From a virus, in IMG/VR virus record IMGVR_UViG_3300027708_000022, positions 64,001 through 128,000 of that record: 64,000 bases of DNA. One strand, given 5' to 3'. Below the pieces are notes generated by a model. It saw nothing but the letters and a program-made list of their open reading frames with translations. It was not told where the DNA came from and did not search any database. The translations under genes were made by a program, and so were the position numbers. This document shows, piece after piece, positions 3,333 through 61,058 of the stretch (positions are counted from its first letter, which is position 1; each line of letters starts with the position of its first letter).

Positions 3333-3371
3333 TTTACTTCTCCTTAGTGTGTGTAACTACTGTGTGTGTAA

Positions 3372-3665
3372 AGCGATAGTTGATTCTGTTTCCAAGTTCA
3401 ACTATCAAAACTCAGATGGTTATGCTTACGCAGCCATCAAAAAGCGATTATCGTTTGCTTTTATAGTTTTTTACTTTTAGCGACTATCTGTGTCGAGTTG
3501 TCCATTCCGTTACTTGTTGCCCAATCGAAACCTGGTCAGCCCATCAAAAGCATACTCGATCGTTTCCTGTCTTATCAATCTTATGACACCAAGTATGCTT
3601 TTGGTGGAGCTGGAGGGAATCGAACCCTCGTCTTGAACACTTTTCTCTTTACTTCATACAACTAT
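3372..3665 (-). ncRNA. ssrA: circularly permuted (two-piece) tmRNA, tag ANDNRFLMAA*
   Basis: The acceptor piece GACGAGGGTTCGATTCCCTCCAGCTCCACCA (3632-3602) lies upstream of the 5' piece TGGGCTGACCAGGTTTCGA (from 3543); G3:U70 pair retained; tag GCA AAC GAT AAT CGC TTT TTG ATG GCT GCG TAA at 3458-3426; ends approximate. Confidence 0.9.
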
Positions 3666-3671
3666 ACAACC

Positions 3672-3700
3672 ATTATATATCACTTCACGATTTTAGTCAA
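3672..3700 (-). promoter_or_regulatory. sigma70-type promoter of tmRNA
   Basis: TTGACT-17 nt-TATAAT directly upstream of the acceptor piece. Confidence 0.8.
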
Positions 3701-4360
3701 TGGTGAATTCGCTAAAAACGACAATAATTGGGTACGGTACATATACTTTTGCCTAACAAAGATTTGTGGTTGCCCGCCTTCTACTGCAATGGCAACAACT
3801 ATAGTATCAATTGTTTTGTTAGTTAATTCCTCAAACATTTCAGCATAAGCCGTACATTGTAGGAAATAATTTAGAATGTTTTCTTCCAACTTTTCTTTTG
3901 ATGAGGACTTATAATCTATGATTGATAACCTTTTATTCCATTCTGCAATAGTATCAACACGACCAGCAATTCTCAGCTTGTCAGAATAAAGTGGTTGTTC
4001 AATTGCATATATCTTACCGATATTTTTATCCAATTCAGGACGCAATTGAAAAAACAACTCTTTAATATTTGGCATCATATTGCGAATTTTTAAATCACTC
4101 ATTTCATTGAGCAAATATTTTTCACAAGCCAAATGCAATGCTTCACCTCGGCGTGAGGCACGACCTGATACTTTATTGGCTTCTTCTTCACCAACTCGGT
4201 TACGCCATGCATCAATAGCACCTTTGTTCATAGACCCAAGTACTGTTGTTACTGACGGGTATGCTTTGCCTGAAGGTGTATAATATAACCGACCAGATTC
4301 TGTTGTCTTTGCTTCCATCTCAAAATCTAATTCAGGTAACTTCTCATGTGTGAAAATCAT
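3680..4360 (-). CDS. PD-(D/E)XK exonuclease
   Basis: YPSVTTVL, GEALH, IEQPLYS, AGRVD, IIDYKSS, QCTAYA motifs. Confidence 0.85.
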   Translation of the reverse strand: MIFTHEKLPELDFEMEAKTTESGRLYYTPSGKAYPSVTTVLGSMNKGAIDAWRNRVGEEEANKVSGRASRRGEALHLACEKYLLNEMSDLKIRNMMPNIKELFFQLRPELDKNIGKIYAIEQPLYSDKLRIAGRVDTIAEWNKRLSIIDYKSSSKEKLEENILNYFLQCTAYAEMFEELTNKTIDTIVVAIAVEGGQPQIFVRQKYMYRTQLLSFLANSPLTKIVK

Positions 4361-9904: not shown

Positions 9905-10730
9905 TTAAATTAGTTAGTCGGTTTGCTATCATATAATTCAAAAATTCTTGTTTAGTATGAACCTTCGTGGTTTCATAGGTATCTATGATACTTTGTTTTA
10001 GGGTCTCAGGTATTTGTGTTAAATCAATCAGCATTCGATTACGATTGAAATTACGCAACATCAACTCATTGCAAAATTCTTCAGGTGGTTGGTTCATCCA
10101 TTGACCAATCTTAACTTCTGTAATTGCTTTTTGACGAATGCCATCAACGATTACATTATCTGCACTTAGAATATTTGGAATACCATCACCTTTATCACCA
10201 CGAATAATCATCTGTTTCAATTGAGCCGTTGGGTCATTTTCTTTGATAAACTTCTTCATAATAGGCGAGTATTGGTCAACATTTGGATATTTCTGTAATT
10301 GAGCAAAGTCTTTATCAGAGGATAAAATCATCACTTTACTAGAACCAGAATATCGCCTCGTCAATACACCAATGATATCGTCAGCTTCTGCTGTGTCAAT
10401 ATCAAGCACTTTATATGGTGAATGATTCCTAAGCTCATCTTTGATTTTATGTAATACTTCAAAGATAGAAGTCCAATCATGTCCAGAAGCTTCACGGCTT
10501 TTCTTACGAAGTCCTTTGTAAAAAGGAAAGATATCACGGCGCCAATATTTTCTATTGTCGCAGGCAATGACAACTTCCGGGCCATGTGATTGTTTAAATT
10601 TCTTCACATAGGTACGGATAGTATTGAGGATCATGTGGCGAACCAAAACCTCATCAACAGGAGTTTTGGAAGAACCAATTTGTTCCATCAAGTTAGCAAT
10701 AGCTACCTGATTATAATCGAATATTATCAT
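9882..10730 (-). CDS. rnh: T4-like RNase H (5'-3' exonuclease)
   Basis: WRRDIFPFYK, EADDII, SSDKDFAQLQ, IIRGDKGDGIPN. Confidence 0.92.
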   Translation of the reverse strand: MIIFDYNQVAIANLMEQIGSSKTPVDEVLVRHMILNTIRTYVKKFKQSHGPEVVIACDNRKYWRRDIFPFYKGLRKKSREASGHDWTSIFEVLHKIKDELRNHSPYKVLDIDTAEADDIIGVLTRRYSGSSKVMILSSDKDFAQLQKYPNVDQYSPIMKKFIKENDPTAQLKQMIIRGDKGDGIPNILSADNVIVDGIRQKAITEVKIGQWMNQPPEEFCNELMLRNFNRNRMLIDLTQIPETLKQSIIDTYETTKVHTKQEFLNYMIANRLTNLIGSIDEF

Positions 10731-10743
10731 AATGATCCATAAT

Positions 10744-11826
10744 TTATTTTATAACTTTCAATAATATTGTATCACGATTCAGACGACCATTGAGGCAAGA
10801 TTCCTTTGCTTTTACCGATTCGATGACATTACGCAAGAATACCTTAGACCCCTTTACAACTTCAGGCAATATTGCCTCTGGTTTTCGTAAGGTCTTTTGC
10901 ACAGATTTCATTTCGCTAAAATTCAGCAAACTTGTTCCTTTGATACTAAAACCAGCAGCATCTAGAGCATGATAAACACCTAGTTTTCTAGTTTTAACAT
11001 TAAACACCCATAGCTGTGTTGCACCAATAATTGTTTTAGGCACCTCAGACTTCAATTTCAATTCATCATTAGATTCACAGAATTGGACTTTTGCAACTAA
11101 TTGGTCTGCCGATATAGCCTTACGCTTGCGAGGTTTTCTTGTTAATTTGGATGCTTCACTTAATTTCATTGCATCGGTGATAATTAAATCACAGAATGTC
11201 ACAAGCTTTTTTAATTCTGATTTACTGAAATTGGAATAACCTTCTTTCAATAACGAATCATCGGTGCTCAATACTTCATCAAATTCAGCTCTACGTTTAC
11301 GGAAGATTTCAATCAGGCGAGTAGCGTGCATTGCCTTAACTCTATCGTGCATAATGCCGAAAGGTGAAGTTTGCTTCGAGAATTCACTAGTGATATAATC
11401 ATCAATAGCACCTTCCAACTCTCCTGCAACTTCAGAGACTTTTTCCGCTAGTCGGTCTTGTATAGTGACTACTGGAACTTTTTTTGTATCCTCGGTTGTT
11501 TTGGACTCATCCAGAGACATTAACTCGGTAACAGTTTGTTTAAGATTACCAACGGTTGCTTCAGGTAGAATTGTGCCATTGGCAACAATACGACACAAGA
11601 AACCTATTGTAACATAGGTCTTGCTAGTATCCAATTTGCCTAAGATTTTATGTTTCTTGGCATAATCCGCAATGTACTTAGCCGCAGTTTTAGCATCCTT
11701 ACTAGAATGATACCAATTCAGAGCTGCTGAAATTTCACTTTGAGATTCTAACTTTTCATGTTTTGGTTCTGCTGTCTTACCTAAAATACGGTCAATCTCT
11801 TCCGAAGTTTTTATTTGCTTTGCCAT
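10744..11826 (-). CDS. conserved T4-like hypothetical protein
   Basis: 360 aa; IIGA.QLWVFN.KTRKLG.Y, KTLRKPE, NGRLN.DTILL. Confidence 0.7.
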   Translation of the reverse strand: MAKQIKTSEEIDRILGKTAEPKHEKLESQSEISAALNWYHSSKDAKTAAKYIADYAKKHKILGKLDTSKTYVTIGFLCRIVANGTILPEATVGNLKQTVTELMSLDESKTTEDTKKVPVVTIQDRLAEKVSEVAGELEGAIDDYITSEFSKQTSPFGIMHDRVKAMHATRLIEIFRKRRAEFDEVLSTDDSLLKEGYSNFSKSELKKLVTFCDLIITDAMKLSEASKLTRKPRKRKAISADQLVAKVQFCESNDELKLKSEVPKTIIGATQLWVFNVKTRKLGVYHALDAAGFSIKGTSLLNFSEMKSVQKTLRKPEAILPEVVKGSKVFLRNVIESVKAKESCLNGRLNRDTILLKVIK

Positions 11827-15623: not shown

Positions 15624-17030
15624 TTAGACCTTGTATCGGTCAGACATAATGGCTTTCAACATGATAGCTTCTGGAGTAAACTCTGAAGTATCTGCTGCAA
15701 GAATTGCTTTAACGATTGAAGGACTGAACCCTGAAACCAAAGCAACACCTGATTCATCATGCTTAACAGGTACGTTATCTGATGAATTGATATTCCAAAA
15801 AACAACTTTAGGAACTTCATAGCCATTTGAGGCGAATTGACGAGCAATCATCTCCATGGCCGAATCATCATGTTCTACGCAAGCATTGAATTGCATATCA
15901 GACAGAATCAACAGCATTGATGGCATATCTTCCTGTGGTACTTTGCCTTTTACAGCAACATTTAAAATCTTCATCATGGCTTTCACCAAGTCAGTAGACA
16001 TACCCCATTCGGATCTAACCATTTGATCCATCTTCTGAATGACATTACCTTTTAGGTTAAGCAATTGCGGATCACTTGAGAATGTTAAAAAGGTGTCTTT
16101 GAAAACTCCTTTGTTCTTATCTGCAAGGTATAGACCAAGAGATACAGAAACATCCATACATGATACTGAACTGTTACGACCAGCAGGGCATGACATAGAA
16201 CCAGAAACGTCAACTAAAGGTAATACATTCGCATCACCAACAAAATTCTCTAAAGCATCCCATTGGGCTACAATGTGGTCTTTTTCGGTTTTGTTGTATG
16301 AACCGTATGCTACGCCTTTCAATACATCATAAGGGAATACTGCACCAGCATTCACCTTAACTTTTGGATCGGTACCTTTAACCAATTCAGCCACATACTC
16401 CGCAAACTTTTCAGTATTACGGTAGAATGCTTTCTTGTAACGGCTAGCCGCCAAAGAAGGCACATGACTGAAATTGATGTTATCCCAATCCTTAGCACAC
16501 ATTTGAGATTCTACCACTTTAGTCATTTCAACCAAAGACTTACGATAGAACTTAGGTGTCATGCCGAAGAACTCACGCAATTCACGAGCAACTTCACCTT
16601 TGCGGGGTGTCCATTTTGCCGCCAATCCGTTTTTAGCTCTCAGAGCATCACCAAGCAAAGTGTATGCTTGTGACTTCAATTCAGAAGTCTGGAAAACAAA
16701 TAGGTCATCCCAACGACCAACTTCAGGTACTTTCCCAAGTAGCTTCATTGCCAAATCAGGACGATTGGTTTCCAAATACTTCAGAATCTGGCGAAACAAC
16801 TCACGCTCGCCAGCGCCACCACGAACATCACGAGACCATAAGGCAACTCGCAATGCTAATTCTTCATCCTGCACCAAAGCAGAAACGAAGTCAGCTGTGA
16901 TATCTTTACCGCGGCTGGCACCGATTTTATAGAACAAATCAACTACAGCATTAGCAGTAGATTTGCGAGCTTTCATACCATTGTCGGTACGAGCTTCTTG
17001 ATTTTGAACTGCGTTTACAAATGAATTCAT
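15624..17030 (-). CDS. TROVE/Ro60-related protein (DUF2828-like) with C-terminal vWA domain
   Basis: RDVRGGAGER, GRWDDL, AAKWTPR, VPSLA in the helical part; MIDAS motif VDVSGSM, ILSDMQF, VFWN, SGFSP. Confidence 0.8.
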   Translation of the reverse strand: MNSFVNAVQNQEARTDNGMKARKSTANAVVDLFYKIGASRGKDITADFVSALVQDEELALRVALWSRDVRGGAGERELFRQILKYLETNRPDLAMKLLGKVPEVGRWDDLFVFQTSELKSQAYTLLGDALRAKNGLAAKWTPRKGEVARELREFFGMTPKFYRKSLVEMTKVVESQMCAKDWDNINFSHVPSLAASRYKKAFYRNTEKFAEYVAELVKGTDPKVKVNAGAVFPYDVLKGVAYGSYNKTEKDHIVAQWDALENFVGDANVLPLVDVSGSMSCPAGRNSSVSCMDVSVSLGLYLADKNKGVFKDTFLTFSSDPQLLNLKGNVIQKMDQMVRSEWGMSTDLVKAMMKILNVAVKGKVPQEDMPSMLLILSDMQFNACVEHDDSAMEMIARQFASNGYEVPKVVFWNINSSDNVPVKHDESGVALVSGFSPSIVKAILAADTSEFTPEAIMLKAIMSDRYKV

Positions 17031-17957: not shown

Positions 17958-18020
17958 AACAGGATAGATTTTAACGGTTTTGATTAGAAGTCAAATGTTT
18001 TAATTTGCTGTTACTATCCT
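17958..18020 (-). ncRNA. CAGCAA-motif small RNA, copy 3
   Basis: AGGATAG-TAA-CAGCAA...TTTGA-CTTCTAA-TCAAA...CTATCCT-GTT. Confidence 0.6.
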
Positions 18021-18461: not shown

Positions 18462-18518
18462 AACAGGATGGAATTTTCTTTTTATCAATAAAAGTTTTTT
18501 TGTTGCTGTTACCATCCT
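18462..18518 (-). ncRNA. CAGCAA-motif small RNA, copy 4
   Basis: AGGATGG-TAA-CAGCAA...CCATCCT-GTT. Confidence 0.55.
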
Positions 18519-18616: not shown

Positions 18617-18691
18617 TGGCTCCGTGATTAGGAATCGAACCTAACTATGACAAATTAACAGTTTGCTCCCACACCTTGCGGGTCTCACGGA
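18617..18691 (-). tRNA. tRNA-Asn(GTT)
   Basis: GCAAA-CTGTTAA-TTTGT; CCA. Confidence 0.88.
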
Positions 18692-19230
18692 ATTATTTTT
18701 TTCAATCTCTTTCTTATCGCTGTATCCGAAATATTTAACTTTTCAGCCACATTAATTATAGTATCATTCTTTAATAATTCTGTTAAATCTATATTATCCC
18801 AATCTACTTTAAATTTTGATTTAGAAGAACAAGATAAAGAACAATATTTATTGAACAATGGTTTATCTTTTTCACAAACAGGACATGAATCCATTTCAGT
18901 TAGTTTTTCTTGTTTATAACTTGTAAAATTTTCATCAAATTTTGTATAATCTTCAGGCATTTTTACAATATCACTATGAACCTCACTATGACAATTATGA
19001 CATAATAAAATGCATTTTCTCAATTCTTCAACAATAGATAACCAATTTTTAGGATTTGCTCGTATTGCTCCAAAAGATAATTCTTTCATGTTTGGGTCTA
19101 TATGGTGTAGGGCTAAAGCACTATCACATTTATTATATCCACATATTTGACAACAATTTCCCATAGACTCTATTATTCGTTTTTTGGTATTTTGTCGCCA
19201 TCTTTTTACTGCTTCTGAATTTTTACTCAT
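18685..19230 (-). CDS. HNH endonuclease
   Basis: CQICGY..C...L.LHHIDP...ELRKCILLCHNCHSEVH; TATAAATA late promoter at 19264-19271. Confidence 0.8.
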   Translation of the reverse strand: MSKNSEAVKRWRQNTKKRIIESMGNCCQICGYNKCDSALALHHIDPNMKELSFGAIRANPKNWLSIVEELRKCILLCHNCHSEVHSDIVKMPEDYTKFDENFTSYKQEKLTEMDSCPVCEKDKPLFNKYCSLSCSSKSKFKVDWDNIDLTELLKNDTIINVAEKLNISDTAIRKRLKKIIP

Positions 19231-19293
19231 AAAACCTCTGTTTTAAAAATTAACTTAATTTGTTATTTATAATTTTAAGGTTTTATAAAAACT

Positions 19294-19370
19294 TGGTTGC
19301 GGAGTCCTGGATTCGAACCAGGGGTCTACAGCTTATGAGGCTGCCGGGATGACCTCTTCCCTAACCCGCA
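19294..19370 (-). tRNA. tRNA-Met(CAT), initiator-like
   Basis: TGCGGG.../CCGCAACCA acceptor; GCAGC-CTCATAA-GCTGT. Confidence 0.82.
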
Positions 19371-19379
19371 ATTAAAACT

Positions 19380-19497
19380 TGGTGTCGCACTCAGGATTCG
19401 AACCTGAACCACTTCCTTTTCGATGGAATTTTGGTATGCTGTTTATATTCTTGTCAGAATACGTTAATAAGTGTGCTACCGTTTACACCAATGCGAC
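19380..19497 (-). ncRNA. tRNA-like RNA with the anticodon arm replaced by a ~60-nt domain
   Basis: Acceptor GTCGCAT/GTGCGAC-ACCA, D arm GTGTAAACGGTAGCAC and T arm TCAGGTTCGAATCCTGA are intact; no canonical anticodon loop. Confidence 0.75.
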
Positions 19498-19506
19498 ATT
19501 AAAACT

Positions 19507-19580
19507 TGGTGCCCTATGACAGAATCGAACTGCCGTGACCTGATTACAAAACAGGTGTAATACCATTATACTAATAGGGC
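19507..19580 (-). tRNA. tRNA-Thr(TGT)
   Basis: Loop TTTGTAA; CCA. Confidence 0.9.
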
Positions 19581-19586
19581 GAAACT

Positions 19587-19661
19587 TGGCGACTCATGGG
19601 AGAATCGAACTCCCGTAACAGGATAGACAATCCCGTGTAATAACCATTATACTAATGAGCC
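19587..19661 (-). tRNA. tRNA-Asp(GTC)
   Basis: CGGGA-TTGTCTA-TCCTG; CCA. Confidence 0.9.
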
Positions 19662-19737
19662 ATATTGAAATACACTATACGGGTCTACGTCCCGTGGCAC
19701 TTTAGACTTTCATTGCCTATAAATGTACTTCAATATG
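19661..19737. repeat. element bounded by CATATTGAARTACA...TGTACTTCAATATG inverted repeats, copy 1
   Basis: Same termini at 20954-21029 and 31258-31371. Confidence 0.75.
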
Positions 19738-20861: not shown

Positions 20862-20954
20862 TGGCGGGCGGCAGAGGAGTCGAACCCCATCCCCATTACA
20901 GAGAACCTGGTTTTCAAGGCCAGTCGCAGGACCATCCCCGCTGCATTACCACCC
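20862..20954 (-). tRNA. tRNA-Ser(TGA), 8/4-type fold
   Basis: Loop CTTGAAA; 8-bp acceptor GGGTGGTA/TGCCGCCC; 4-bp T stem; long variable arm; GCCA end. Confidence 0.8.
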
Positions 20955-21029
20955 ATATTGAAGTACACTCCTGATTCTGTTCGATAAAACAGAATGTTGG
21001 CTAGCCTACCTGAAATGTACTTCAATATG
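20954..21029. repeat. CATATTGAAGTACA inverted-repeat element, copy 2
   Basis: Fills the whole gap between tRNA-Gln and tRNA-Ser. Confidence 0.75.
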
Positions 21030-21101
21030 GCAGCGGTACTTGGGATCGAACCAAGGATAACGGATTCAAAATCCATCGTGATACCATTTCACTATACCGC
21101 A
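21028..21101 (-). tRNA. tRNA-Gln(TTG)
   Basis: ATGGA-TTTTGAA-TCCGT; CCA. Confidence 0.9.
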
Positions 21102-59787: not shown

Positions 59788-61058
59788 TTTTTTAATACCT
59801 CTTCGATATATTCAAAAACTTTATCATTCCAAAATGGTGGGCATCCTAAGATAAACACATGAGACAATGCTTTGTTTGCTAGTGGATACTTATTGTAATC
59901 ATCTAAATGTTTAAAACCTGGATGTAACAGAATATTACCAGCAAAATAATTGCGTGTTTGGATCTTATTAGCTTCTAAGTATGCAACTAATTTCTCTTTT
60001 TCTTGTTGTGTCTCACAAATGATTGGCACACCAAACCAAGACGGATCAGATTGAGGTAAAGTATCTGCAATTCGAACATTCAAATATTTTTCTAACAATA
60101 GGGACAATCGAGCTTTATGTTCACGGCGTTTTGTATCAATAAAGTCCACTTTCTCCAACTGAGCAATACCAATTGCTCCTTGCATATCGAGTGGCTTTAG
60201 ATTGTATCCTGCATGGGAGAAAATATACTTGTGGTCAATGATACCATCATATGTATCTAACCAACGGTCAAATCTATTACCACAAGTACCGCATGGCAAT
60301 TGGTTATTTGAACCAACACAATAGCAATCTCTACCCCACCAGCTTAGTGAGCGCACAATGTCAATAAATTCTGGTGTATTGGATGAAACCATGCCACCCT
60401 CACCAGTTGAAATGTGGTGTGCAGGATAGAATGATGTTGACCAACAGAAGTACATATCGGTAAGAAGTTTACCATTCCATTTTGTACCCAATGAGTCACA
60501 GTTATCACCAACTAGAATCAAATTATGTCGTTCACATAATTCTCTAATAAAATCCATGTCAGGTGGATTAGCAAGAACAGGTGATACAACAATAGCCTTT
60601 GTTCTAGGTGTAATCTTTGCTTCAATTAGATTAACATCAAAGTTTAGTGTATCAAACTCAATATCAACGAATACAGGTTTAAGATTGTTCTGCATCAATG
60701 GTGCAATCGTTGTTGGGAAACCAACTGGTGATACAATCACCTCATCATTATCTTGCCATTTGAAATGCTTCTTCAATGCACCAATCATCACCAAGTTGGC
60801 TGAACTACCTGAGTTGACCATGTGTGATTGTTTTACATTATATTTCTTTGAGAATCTAATTTGAAATTTCTCAACATTCTCGCCAGCAGAAATCCATTTG
60901 CCAGTTAGGAACGCCTTGAGAGATAACTCCATCTCCCTTTCGTCCCACAATTGACCTGAGTACATGACATAATCTTCACCGGGTTTGAAGTTGTCATAGT
61001 TCTGTAGGTACTTTGGTTTAGCCAGTTTTGCTAATTCTTTAATTTTCTCGTCAATCAT
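59778..61058 (-). CDS. DegT/RfbH-family PMP-dependent sugar 3-dehydrase
   Basis: VNSGSSANL, DNCDSLG, SFYPAHHISTGEGG (His at the usual Lys position), WGRDCYC...CG.RF. Confidence 0.85.
   Translation of the reverse strand: MIDEKIKELAKLAKPKYLQNYDNFKPGEDYVMYSGQLWDEREMELSLKAFLTGKWISAGENVEKFQIRFSKKYNVKQSHMVNSGSSANLVMIGALKKHFKWQDNDEVIVSPVGFPTTIAPLMQNNLKPVFVDIEFDTLNFDVNLIEAKITPRTKAIVVSPVLANPPDMDFIRELCERHNLILVGDNCDSLGTKWNGKLLTDMYFCWSTSFYPAHHISTGEGGMVSSNTPEFIDIVRSLSWWGRDCYCVGSNNQLPCGTCGNRFDRWLDTYDGIIDHKYIFSHAGYNLKPLDMQGAIGIAQLEKVDFIDTKRREHKARLSLLLEKYLNVRIADTLPQSDPSWFGVPIICETQQEKEKLVAYLEANKIQTRNYFAGNILLHPGFKHLDDYNKYPLANKALSHVFILGCPPFWNDKVFEYIEEVLKKCP

What the first reader, a model, noticed from the sequence alone, without database searches (positions are those of the whole stretch)
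19380..19497. tRNA body with the anticodon arm replaced by a ~60-nt structured insert
Seen in sequence: intact acceptor stem with ACCA end, D arm and T arm. Between ACTT and AAGT lies TATTCT-GACA-AGAATA, then AACAGCAT (close to the CAGCAA motif of the neighbouring small RNAs), then TTCC-ATCGAAAA-GGAA. I found no simple excision that restores a canonical 7-nt loop. Inference: the conserved elbow and acceptor argue against decay; it may be a tRNA mimic, a chimera with the CAGCAA family, or an intron-containing tRNA.
Basis: partly seen in the sequence, partly recalled or inferred. Interest (0 to 1): 0.7.

Follow-up and report, generated by a model that had tools for sequence, protein, structure and literature searches.

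The report
tRNA carrying a Y-RNA docking arm
This phage gene encodes a complete tRNA-shaped RNA with an extra conserved arm, probably a docking site for the phage's Ro60-like protein; it is a known kind of tRNA-mimicking Y RNA in an undescribed layout that keeps a free CCA end.

Summary
The 118-nt element (minus strand, 19497..19380) is real. It lies in a 25-tRNA array of an uncultured ~162-kb T4-like phage.

The anticodon arm is split, not replaced. A 42-nt insert sits inside the 5' strand of the anticodon stem. Removing it in silico gives a 76-nt cloverleaf that ARAGORN calls a tRNA.

**A conserved family.**
- The same architecture occurs in 46 viral contigs, giving 39 distinct sequences.
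- The acceptor stem is 100% paired with 4-5 pair types per position.
- The tRNA core nucleotides are invariant.

**What the insert is.** It is a hairpin AUYCUG-loop-AGRAU followed by N5-CAGCA. This matches, in register, the terminal stem of the neighbouring "CAGCAA" small RNAs. Those RNAs include YrlA-like circularly permuted tRNAs, and a profile test shows the two layouts are circular permutations of each other.

**The likely partner.** The DUF2828 gene 2.3 kb downstream folds like Ro60. All seven complete genomes with this RNA, plus a cultured cyanophage, carry that gene.

**Best reading (0.55).** It is a Y RNA in tRNA topology. Rivals are a chargeable tRNA with an extra arm and a new kind of tRNA intron.

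I judge it a new variant of a known kind.

The parts
19491..19497 (-). Acceptor stem, 5' strand (RNA nt 1-7, GUCGCAU)
   Evidence: Pairs with 19384-19390. All 7 pairs are kept in 39/39 family members, with 4-5 pair types each.
19473..19490 (-). U8-G9 and the D arm (RNA nt 8-25; stem GUGU/GCAC, loop AAACGGUA)
   Evidence: The D stem is 100% paired. U8, A14, G18, G19 and A21 are invariant in 39/39.
19471..19472 (-). A26 and C27. C27 is the first base of the split anticodon stem and pairs with G86 at 19412.
   Evidence: A composite 5-bp stem is found in 37/39 members against 5% of shuffles. Pair 27:43 occurs as C-G, G-C, A-U and U-A.
19463..19470 (-). 5' linker of the insert (RNA nt 28-35, UUAUUAAC), A/U-rich and apparently single-stranded
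   Evidence: Variable in sequence and length across the family.
19445..19462 (-). Docking-arm hairpin G-UAUUCU-GACA-AGAAUA-U (RNA nt 36-53)
   Evidence: AUYCUG and AGRAU are invariant. The stem is 96% paired, with C-G in 28 members and U-A in 11 at one pair. G after the 5' strand is invariant. The same stem forms the open end of the CAGCAA small RNAs.
19436..19444 (-). AAA-CAGCAU (RNA nt 54-62), the family signature CAGCA at fixed spacing from the stem
   Evidence: CAGCA is invariant in 39/39. The pattern AGRATNNNNNCAGCA gives 5 hits against 0.36 expected in the window.
19429..19435 (-). 3' linker of the insert (RNA nt 63-69, ACCAAAA)
   Evidence: Variable and A-rich.
19412..19428 (-). Anticodon-like arm UUCC-AUCGAAAA-GGAA plus G86 (RNA nt 70-86), with an 8-nt loop
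   Evidence: 28/39 members have a 7-nt loop of the form [A/C]U-NNN-AA and 11/39 have 8 nt. After excision ARAGORN reads 'cgaa' here.
19408..19411 (-). Variable loop UGGU (RNA nt 87-90)
   Evidence: The variable loop is 4-5 nt in all members. Pair 15:48 is A:U in 24 members and G:C in 3.
19391..19407 (-). T arm UCAGG-UUCGAAU-CCUGA (RNA nt 91-107)
   Evidence: G53, U54, U55, C56, A58 and C61 are invariant. The stem covaries.
19380..19390 (-). Acceptor stem 3' strand GUGCGAC, discriminator A73 and the encoded CCA (RNA nt 108-118)
   Evidence: 36/39 members encode NCCA. The CCA-AGUUUUAAU spacer is the same as for the flanking tRNAs.
15624..17030 (-). Gene for a Ro60-like protein (Pfam DUF2828 + DUF7788, PHROG 850), the proposed partner of the docking arm
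   Evidence: Pfam and PHROG. The 12 best Foldseek matches of the AF2 model are all Ro60/TROVE structures aligned over about the full length (E from 1e-7 to 5e-4, best TM 0.57). Present in all 7 complete genomes that hold this RNA type and in phage BUCT-ZZ01.
17108..17206 (-). Open-ended CAGCAA small RNA directly upstream of the Ro60-like gene, carrying the same stem and CAGCA signature
17958..18020 (-). Open-ended CAGCAA small RNA displaying an anticodon-arm-like hairpin
Evidence: Motif hit at 18006-18020. The homologous units in L005/L006 appear.
18462..18518 (-). Open-ended CAGCAA small RNA
Evidence: Motif hit at 18504-18518.

Best explanation
The element is a Y-type non-coding RNA built in tRNA topology. 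Its body is a complete tRNA: a 7-bp acceptor stem, D arm, anticodon-like arm, 4-nt variable loop, T arm and encoded ACCA. A 42-nt module is inserted into the 5' strand of the anticodon stem, between nt 27 and 28. The module is a hairpin AUYCUG-loop-AGRAU followed, at fixed spacing, by CAGCA. This is the same signature that forms the open terminal stem of the neighbouring CAGCAA small RNAs. Several of those RNAs are YrlA-like circularly permuted tRNAs with a closed acceptor.

Proposed course:
1. The RNA is transcribed with the tRNA array.
2. RNase P and 3' trimming release it like a tRNA.
3. It folds into the L shape.
4. The inserted arm docks on the phage's Ro60-like DUF2828 protein.
5. The tRNA body, with its free CCA end and anticodon-like loop, then acts as a tRNA look-alike. 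It would tether a tRNA-binding factor to that protein or divert such a factor from real tRNAs.

Shown here: the anatomy, its conservation and covariation, the shared module, the permutation relationship, the Ro60 fold of the neighbouring protein, and their co-occurrence.

Inferred: processing, binding to the protein, and the tether or decoy role.
For: Anatomy and conservation:
- A pattern with 23 specified bases finds 46 viral stretches (I estimate about one by chance).
- 39 distinct sequences align.
- The acceptor stem is 100% paired in 39/39, the D stem 100%, the arm stem 96% and the T stem 89%. The covariation score is 0.47 against 0.14 in shuffles and at most 0.20 when partners are slid.
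- U8, A14, G18, G19, A21, G53, U54, U55, C56, A58 and C61 are invariant.
- A composite 5-bp anticodon stem is found in 37/39 members against 5% of shuffles.
- All 39 are called tRNAs after in-silico removal of the insert.
- Model R1 scores the element at 107.5 bits and ordinary tRNAs at 35 or less. There is one copy in the genome.

Shared module: AGRATNNNNNCAGCA gives 5 hits against 0.36 expected in the window. The AGGAU/AUCCU to AGAAU/AUUCU change is compensatory and also occurs in open forms.

Permutation: a profile of the family matches open YrlA-like forms as one collinear hit (positions 13-111, E 7.6e-12) only after they are cut in the acceptor loop and rejoined. Unpermuted forms match in two separate halves. 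No shuffle scores below E 1.

Partner:
- The 12 best PDB matches of the DUF2828 model are all Ro60/TROVE.
- The gene lies 2.3 kb downstream on the same strand.
- It is present in 18/45 fetched stretches, always downstream on the same strand.
- It is present in 6/6 further complete records, in the window's own genome, and in the cultured phage BUCT-ZZ01, where two such RNAs lie within about 300 nt downstream of the gene's stop, separated from it by a tRNA-Met.
- The base rate of DUF2828 in cultured phage records is 704/50,697.

Precedent:
- YrlA RNAs lie next to Ro60 genes on the same strand and mimic tRNA. M. smegmatis YrlA is cut by RNase P and receives CCA (PMC4201824).
- YrlA is described as a circularly permuted tRNA lacking CCA and an anticodon loop (bioRxiv 10.1101/312249).
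- A phage Ro60 binds two Y-like RNAs encoded upstream of its gene (PMC12135203).
Against: - No binding, expression or processing data exist for any member.
- The protein does not match Pfam TROVE. It is Ro60-like only by predicted fold (model pLDDT 72, TM 0.57).
- The RNA motif CAGCA differs from the GNCGAA motif of YrlA. No Rfam Y-RNA family matches, even at E up to 10.
- Most DUF2828 phages lack this RNA type: 4 strong hits in 45 records and 0 of 6 complete ones. It is therefore an accessory, not an obligate partner.
- The retained anticodon-like arm (U33, A37, three variable central bases) and the encoded CCA are more than a docking scaffold needs. They fit a real tRNA function as well.
- Co-occurrence could reflect shared ancestry of these phages rather than function.
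Confidence: 0.55

Rival explanations
1. It is a working tRNA with an extra arm. The RNA is aminoacylated and perhaps decodes (in the window through an 8-nt loop, i.e. a possible four-base anticodon CGAA). The inserted arm is a permanent appendage that couples this tRNA to a protein.
For: - Complete cloverleaf, invariant tRNA core and encoded CCA.
- Loops of the form [A/C]U-NNN-AA, with U33 and A37, in 28/39 members.
- All 39 are called tRNAs after excision.
- Within one clade the central triplets are GAC, UAC and CAC, all Val. In the window's clade they are UGA and CGA(A), both Ser. The discriminator base fits the E. coli rule for Asp (G73 in 8/9), Val (A73) and Ser in L202 (G73) (identity rules are from my own knowledge).
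- The window and L005 lack a tRNA-Ser for UCN codons.
Against: - 11/39 members, including this one, have 8-nt loops.
- Nine members combine G3:U70 and A73 (the alanine identity set, from my own knowledge) with non-Ala triplets UGA, UGU, GUU, GAU and GUC. This would cause mistranslation.
- The triplet usually duplicates a canonical tRNA in the same locus.
- L006 has both tRNA-Ser(UGA) and this element.
- There is no special similarity to the cognate tRNA.
- A branch inside the anticodon stem is unknown in decoding tRNAs.
Confidence: 0.17
2. It is an intron-containing pre-tRNA. The 42-nt arm is cut out by a protein endonuclease, and a ligase joins the halves to give a 76-nt tRNA. The open CAGCAA/YrlA-like forms would then be permuted tRNA genes matured by the same machinery.
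For: - Precise removal restores a cloverleaf in 39/39 members.
- The insert has conserved sequence that could be a recognition site.
- Neighbouring genes include a phosphoesterase and an RNase H-fold protein.
- Precedents exist in archaea and a red alga for introns at non-canonical positions and for permuted tRNA genes (my own knowledge; PMC3400036 is listed but I did not read it).
Against: - At 42 nt the insert is far too small for a group I intron.
- I saw no bulge-helix-bulge motif or pairing between the insert's two ends (by eye).
- The insertion point shifts between nt 26/27, 27/28 and 28/29.
- The same module ends many short RNAs (50-70 nt) that hold only a hairpin and could not yield a tRNA.
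- The restored tRNAs have the defects listed for the previous rival (8-nt loops, G3:U70 with non-Ala triplets, redundancy).
Confidence: 0.1
3. It is a tRNA mimic whose arm binds something other than the DUF2828 protein, such as another phage or host protein or an RNA. The link to the Ro60-like gene would then be only genomic neighbourhood.
For: - Only a minority of DUF2828 phages have this RNA type.
- The distance between the RNA and the gene varies from 0.2 to 7.6 kb.
- The motif differs from known Ro60-binding motifs.
Against: - All 7 complete genomes with the RNA, plus BUCT-ZZ01, have the gene, against a base rate of about 1.4% in cultured phages.
- Open-form members sit directly before the gene's start.
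- The arrangement matches that of Ro60 and Y RNAs.
Confidence: 0.15
4. It is a decayed tRNA gene with a junk insertion.
For: Not called by default tRNA finders. The loop is 8 nt.
Against: The architecture is conserved with compensatory changes across 39 distinct sequences in phages of 160-385 kb. The insert itself holds the most invariant bases.
Confidence: 0.02

Closest known systems
YrlA (Y RNA-like A) of bacteria and mycobacteriophages (Chen et al. 2014, PMC4201824; Wang et al. 2018, bioRxiv 10.1101/312249)
   Same: - A tRNA-like L-shaped body with conserved D and T arms and tertiary nucleotides.
- A separate module with a short conserved single-strand motif next to a stem.
- Encoded within a few kb of, and on the same strand as, a Ro60-type gene.
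- Found in phages.
- The open forms in this phage group have the YrlA order: stem, motif, V, T, acceptor-like hairpin, D, stem.
   Different: - The topology is the reverse. Here the acceptor stem is open with encoded CCA and the protein-binding stem is closed by a loop.
- YrlA lacks a free CCA and an anticodon loop. This RNA has both.
- The motif is CAGCA, not GNCGAAN0-1G.
- The partner protein is DUF2828/DUF7788, not Pfam TROVE.
- No Rfam match.
Mycobacterium smegmatis YrlA after processing (PMC4201824)
   Same: A Y RNA with a 7-bp acceptor stem that RNase P cuts and that gains CCA. The cell therefore ends up with a Y RNA bearing a tRNA-like free end.
   Different: There the open acceptor arises by cleavage of a closed loop and leaves a two-piece RNA. 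Here a one-piece RNA with tRNA ends is encoded directly.
Thermus phage phiLo Ro60 with Yrl1/Yrl2 (PMC12135203; PDB 9KOP, 9L5Y)
   Same: A phage-encoded Ro60-fold protein with Y-like RNAs encoded beside the gene. It is the best structural match of the DUF2828 model.
   Different: Yrl1 and Yrl2 are stem-bulge-stem RNAs with a CGAA motif. They are not described as tRNA-shaped and have no CCA end.
tmRNA
   Same: A tRNA-like acceptor/T domain with a CCA end joined to a large non-tRNA insert. Nine family members share its GGGGC acceptor with G3:U70 and A73.
   Different: There is no tag reading frame and no pseudoknots. A D arm and an anticodon-like arm are present. The window element has C3-G70. 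The phage has a separate tmRNA at 3369-3714.
Class II tRNAs, tRNAs with introns at non-canonical positions, and permuted tRNA genes (my own knowledge)
   Same: An extra arm leaving the tRNA near the D-stem/anticodon-stem junction, an insertion outside the anticodon loop, and pairs of permuted and unpermuted layouts.
   Different: The arm is on the 5' strand of the anticodon stem, not in the variable region. There is no bulge-helix-bulge motif. The insert is conserved in sequence and shared with free-standing small RNAs.

Membership tests
YrlA-type Y RNA | Encoded within about 4 kb of a Ro60 orthologue, on the same strand | tested here: met
   The element lies 2.35 kb upstream of the DUF2828 gene on the same strand. 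The gene is Ro60-like by fold only.
YrlA-type Y RNA | tRNA-like domain with T arm, D arm, acceptor-like stem and tRNA tertiary nucleotides | tested here: met
   Covariation and invariant core nucleotides.
YrlA-type Y RNA | RNA ends lie in the Ro-binding stem, the acceptor-like stem is closed by a loop, and there is no free CCA or anticodon loop | tested here: not met
   The acceptor is open with encoded ACCA, the arm is closed by a GACA loop, and an anticodon-like loop is present.
YrlA-type Y RNA | GNCGAAN0-1G motif near the 5' end | tested here: not met
   The invariant motif is CAGCA, or CUGCA in phage BUCT-ZZ01.
YrlA-type Y RNA | Match to a curated Y-RNA covariance model | tested here: not met
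   No Y-RNA family among the Rfam matches at E up to 10 on 19200-19700. Nothing but tRNAs at gathering score in loci holding open forms.
YrlA-type Y RNA | Bound by the Ro60 protein in vivo | not testable with these tools
   Needs immunoprecipitation or a gel shift.
Canonical tRNA | 7-bp acceptor, D arm, T arm, discriminator and CCA, conserved core | tested here: met
Canonical tRNA | Uninterrupted 5-bp anticodon stem with a 7-nt loop | tested here: not met
   The stem is split by 42 nt between nt 27 and 28, and the loop is 8 nt.
Canonical tRNA | Called by ARAGORN (default) and the Rfam tRNA model | tested here: not met
   It is called only after in-silico excision or with the intron option.
Canonical tRNA | Aminoacylation and decoding | not testable with these tools
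   Needs charging assays.
Intron-containing tRNA (group I or bulge-helix-bulge type) | Group I intron in the anticodon loop (over 200 nt, conserved P-helices) | tested here: not met
   The insert is 42 nt and lies in the stem, not the loop. No intron family among the Rfam matches.
Intron-containing tRNA (group I or bulge-helix-bulge type) | Bulge-helix-bulge motif at the exon-intron junctions | tested here: inconclusive
   None seen by eye in alignment A1. No dedicated search was run.
tmRNA | G3:U70 acceptor, tag reading frame, pseudoknots | tested here: not met
   The element has C3-G70, is 118 nt and has no tag. ARAGORN and Rfam place the tmRNA elsewhere, at 3369-3714.

The most novel reading that the evidence does not exclude
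The RNA is a chargeable tRNA that permanently carries a docking arm for a Ro60-like protein, physically linking an RNA-surveillance particle to aminoacylation or translation. Alternatively, the arm is a new protein-dependent tRNA intron in phages, with the open forms being permuted tRNA genes. Members with G3:U70, A73 and non-Ala anticodon-like loops would then be alanine-charged tRNA look-alikes, acting like tmRNA without a message.
Probability: 0.2. Interest if true: 0.9.

Novelty: new variant of a known kind. Interest (0 to 1): 0.7.

Why it matters
Known bacterial Y RNAs of the YrlA type are described as circularly permuted tRNAs without a CCA end or anticodon loop. What their tRNA-like part binds is an open question.

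This family shows the same parts in the unpermuted order, with a free CCA end and an anticodon-like arm. It sits in tRNA arrays of many large aquatic phages, next to a Ro60-fold protein that standard domain searches file only as DUF2828.

- **Origin.** Finding both layouts in one phage group bears on how such Y RNAs arose from tRNAs.
- **Testable partners.** The free CCA end makes RNase P, the CCA-adding enzyme, aminoacyl-tRNA synthetases and EF-Tu directly testable as partners.
- **Counter-defence lead.** Phage counter-measures against tRNA-targeting host defences are an active field.
- **A tractable system.** Two unannotated copies lie in a cultured phage of a genetically tractable host: Synechococcus phage BUCT-ZZ01 on S. 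elongatus PCC 7942.
- **Annotation gap.** tRNA finders miss these genes.

Tried and rejected
- **blastn for homologues.** Searching the element against 50,697 phage records and against 86 fetched loci found only ordinary tRNAs or near-identical copies. Homologues appeared only through structured patterns.
- **Too loose a pattern.** It needed filtering.
- **Rfam.** No family other than tRNA for the neighbours.
- **PDB sequence search.** Searching with the DUF2828 protein found nothing. NCBIfam also found nothing.
- **Replacement for the missing tRNA-Ser(UGA).** Rejected as a general rule. L006 has both, and in other phages the loop triplet usually duplicates a canonical tRNA.
- **Copy of the cognate tRNA.** Rejected. 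There is no excess similarity. The two apparent exceptions seem to be ARAGORN calling part of the element itself, judging by the start of the called sequence.
- **Hammerhead-like core in CUGANGA.** Rejected by eye. The fourth base is not conserved.
- **ACCA/UGGU helix of the single-sequence fold.** By eye it does not recur in the other members I checked.
- **Searching within ±6 kb of DUF2828 in 78 relatives.** This gave no strong hit, because the RNA often lies further away or is absent.

Full report
**Setting**

The window is part of a 162-kb IMG/VR virus record, 95% complete. The closest cultured relative of its DUF2828 gene is a Kyanoviridae cyanophage.

On the minus strand between about 12.4 and 21.1 kb lie 25 ARAGORN tRNAs covering all 20 amino acids. 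A tmRNA lies at 3369-3714. The element occupies a tRNA-sized slot between tRNA-Thr(UGU) and tRNA-Met(CAU). It has the same CCA-AGUUUUAAU spacers as its neighbours. No ORF of 60 aa or more overlaps it.

**The observation**

The single-sequence fold gives the acceptor stem, D arm, T arm, the UAUUCU/AGAAUA hairpin and the UUCC/GGAA hairpin. The MFE is -32.1 kcal/mol, z -3.6. ARAGORN in default mode and the Rfam tRNA model skip it, and no Rfam family fits it even at E 10.

**Finding relatives**

- blastn found only two near-identical contigs.
- Reading the gaps between tRNAs in 80 loci fetched through the neighbouring DUF2828 gene showed a large family of small RNAs. They have the form AGGAUNN-NNN-CAGCAA ... 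NNAUCCUG-UU.
- The element contains the same two strands joined by a loop: G-UAUUCUG-ACA-AGAAUAU-AAA-CAGCAU.
- The in-register signature AGRATNNNNNCAGCA occurs 5 times in the window against 0.36 expected. Four hits lie on the minus strand in the array.
- A pattern demanding the D-loop GGTAGCA, then AUYCUG, a short loop, AGRAU, N5 and CAGCA has 23 specified bases. It matched 46 stretches of IMG/VR, one contig of a cyanobacterial MAG, and nothing else among 185,579 prokaryote genomes.
- A covariance search found two more copies in the cultured Synechococcus phage BUCT-ZZ01.

**Structure of the family**

39 distinct sequences of 115-129 nt align well.

| Feature | Result |
|---|---|
| Acceptor stem | all seven pairs formed in 39/39, 4-5 pair types each |
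| D stem | 100% paired |
| Arm stem | 96% paired; one pair C-G in 28 and U-A in 11 |
| T stem | 89% paired |
| Covariation score | 0.47, against 0.14 in shuffles and at most 0.20 with slid partners |
| tRNA core (U8, A14, G18, G19, A21, G53, U54, U55, C56, A58, C61) | invariant |
| AUYCUG, AGRAU, CAGCA | invariant |
| Encoded NCCA | 36/39 |

L202 is a diverged relative of the window's copy. It has compensatory changes in the acceptor stem (U2-A71 becomes C2-G71) and in the T stem.

**The anticodon arm is split, not replaced**

- In 37/39 members the bases just after nt 26, together with the hairpin before the variable loop, make a 5-bp stem in the canonical register. Only 5% of shuffles do so.
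- Pair 27:43 occurs as C-G, G-C, A-U and U-A.
- The insert enters after nt 26, 27 or 28, depending on the clade.
- The loop is 7 nt of the form [A/C]U-NNN-AA in 28/39 members. It is 8 nt in 11/39, including the window (AUCGAAAA). L202 has AUUGAAA.
- Removing the insert in silico (RNA nt 28-69 in the window) gives sequences that ARAGORN calls tRNAs in 39/39 cases.
- With its intron option ARAGORN also calls the intact element, as tRNA-Phe(aaa) with a 45-nt intron. It can place introns only in the loop, so I regard that parse as forced.

**Relation to YrlA-like RNAs**

Among 231 distinct open-ended CAGCAA RNAs in the fetched loci, many of the longer ones have the following order: stem, CAGCAA, hairpin, T arm, a closed acceptor-like hairpin of 7-8 bp, D arm, stem. 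This is the published order of YrlA (PMC4201824). YrlA is described as a circularly permuted tRNA that lacks a free CCA and an anticodon loop (bioRxiv 10.1101/312249).

I built a profile HMM of the closed-arm family and tested it on ten open forms.

- Cut in the acceptor loop and rejoined, they match as one collinear hit, mostly spanning positions about 13-111. The best E-value is 7.6e-12 (37 bits).
- Unpermuted, they match only as two separate halves (24 bits at best).
- No shuffle scores below E 1.

The two layouts are therefore circular permutations of one design.

**The neighbouring protein**

- The 468-aa product of 15624-17030 matches Pfam DUF2828 and DUF7788 and PHROG 850, "RNA-binding protein". 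It has no sequence match in the PDB.
- An AlphaFold2 model built from 18 homologues has mean pLDDT 72.
- The 12 best Foldseek matches of the model are all Ro60/TROVE structures. They include Thermus phage phiLo Ro60, D. radiodurans Rsr and Xenopus Ro. The alignments cover about the full length, with E from 1e-7 to 5e-4 and best TM 0.57.
- For phiLo Ro60, binding to two Y-like RNAs encoded beside the gene has been shown (PMC12135203).

**Co-occurrence**

- 18 of 45 stretches that hold the RNA also hold the gene, always downstream on the same strand.
- Of the other 29 records, 13 have the gene elsewhere, including all 6 that are at least 90% complete. The negatives are fragments no more than 38% complete.
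- Counting the window's own genome gives 7/7 complete genomes, plus BUCT-ZZ01.
- The gene occurs in 704 of 50,697 cultured phage records.
- The converse does not hold. Only 4 of 45 DUF2828-bearing records gave a strong hit, and none of 6 complete ones did.

**Weighing the readings**

The arm is the most conserved part of the RNA, and it is shared with RNAs that could not be tRNAs. This points to a common ligand. By position, fold and precedent, that ligand is most likely the Ro60-like protein.

Against an ordinary decoding role:
- 28% of members have 8-nt loops.
- Nine members combine G3:U70 and A73 with non-Ala triplets.
- The triplet usually duplicates a canonical tRNA in the same locus.
- There is no special likeness to the cognate tRNA.

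Against an intron:
- The insert is too small for group I.
- No bulge-helix-bulge motif was seen.
- The insertion point shifts between clades.
- The module also ends short RNAs that hold only a hairpin.

In favour of more than a scaffold:
- The loop is anticodon-like.
- Triplet changes within two clades are synonymous (Val: GAC, UAC, CAC; Ser: UGA, CGA).
- The CCA is encoded.

I therefore keep both rivals open, at 0.17 for the working tRNA and 0.10 for the intron.

**What is shown and what is inferred**

Shown: the anatomy, family, covariation, shared module, permutation relationship, Ro60-like fold of the neighbour, and co-occurrence.

Inferred: transcription with the array, RNase P and 3' maturation, binding of the arm to the protein, and a tether or decoy role toward tRNA-binding factors.

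**Novelty**

I found no paper describing a Y RNA in tRNA topology, or DUF2828 as a Ro60 relative with partner RNAs. The nearest precedent is M. smegmatis YrlA, which becomes open-ended only after RNase P cleavage. I file this as a new variant of a known kind.

Two earlier notes flagged the CAGCAA RNAs and the Ro60-like gene. I tested those claims here rather than relying on them.

Noticed in passing
window 18685-19230 (-): An HNH-like ORF (weak Pfam AI2M-like_HNH match) lies between tRNA-Met and tRNA-Asn. In the 99%-identical relatives L005 and L006 these two tRNAs are adjacent. This looks like a recent mobile insertion into the array.
   Followed up: partly
L006:2252 versus window ~20950-21030: tRNA-Ser(UGA) is called in L006 but not in the window or L005. 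These near-identical phages therefore differ in whether they carry a tRNA for UCN codons.
   Followed up: partly
L204, L206, L215, L218, L222, L228, L233, L236, L238 (coordinates): Nine family members have a GGGGC acceptor stem with G3:U70 and A73, the alanine/tmRNA identity set. Their anticodon-like triplets are UGA, UGU, GUU, GAU or GUC.
   Followed up: partly
L255:10581-10696 and 10711-10827 (ON615601.1:111332-111447 and 111201-111317, minus strand): The cultured Synechococcus phage BUCT-ZZ01 has two tandem copies of this RNA type (100 and 68 bits). They are unannotated and lie just after its DUF2828 gene and a tRNA-Met. They carry CUGCA instead of CAGCA.
   Followed up: yes
loci L005-L240, e.g. 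L027:2043-2162, L053:3763-3863, L005:5007-5082: The open CAGCAA family has at least 231 distinct members in several architectures. These are a hairpin with an anticodon-like loop only (50-70 nt), YrlA-like forms with 7-8-bp closed acceptors, cloverleaves joined through a short acceptor, and a type with a GAGUUUCGAUUUUCUCAC arm directly before the DUF2828 gene.
   Followed up: partly
L004:5429-5534: A 106-nt tRNA-like sequence with acceptor, D and T arms and a different, unrelated insert, in a more distant phage contig.
   Followed up: no
L108, L186, L213, L218, L255:3627-3702: ARAGORN calls suppressor-type tRNAs (anticodon CTA labelled 'Pyl', TTA labelled 'Stop') in several related phage arrays.
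   Followed up: no
window 3369-3714 (-); L255:4749-5167: The window phage encodes a tmRNA that Rfam matches with its permuted-tmRNA model. BUCT-ZZ01 also encodes a tmRNA, flagged by ARAGORN with an asterisk, which I take to mean permuted.
   Followed up: no
window 59929-59943 (+): A fifth match to AGRATNNNNNCAGCA, on the other strand and far from the array. Probably chance.
   Followed up: no
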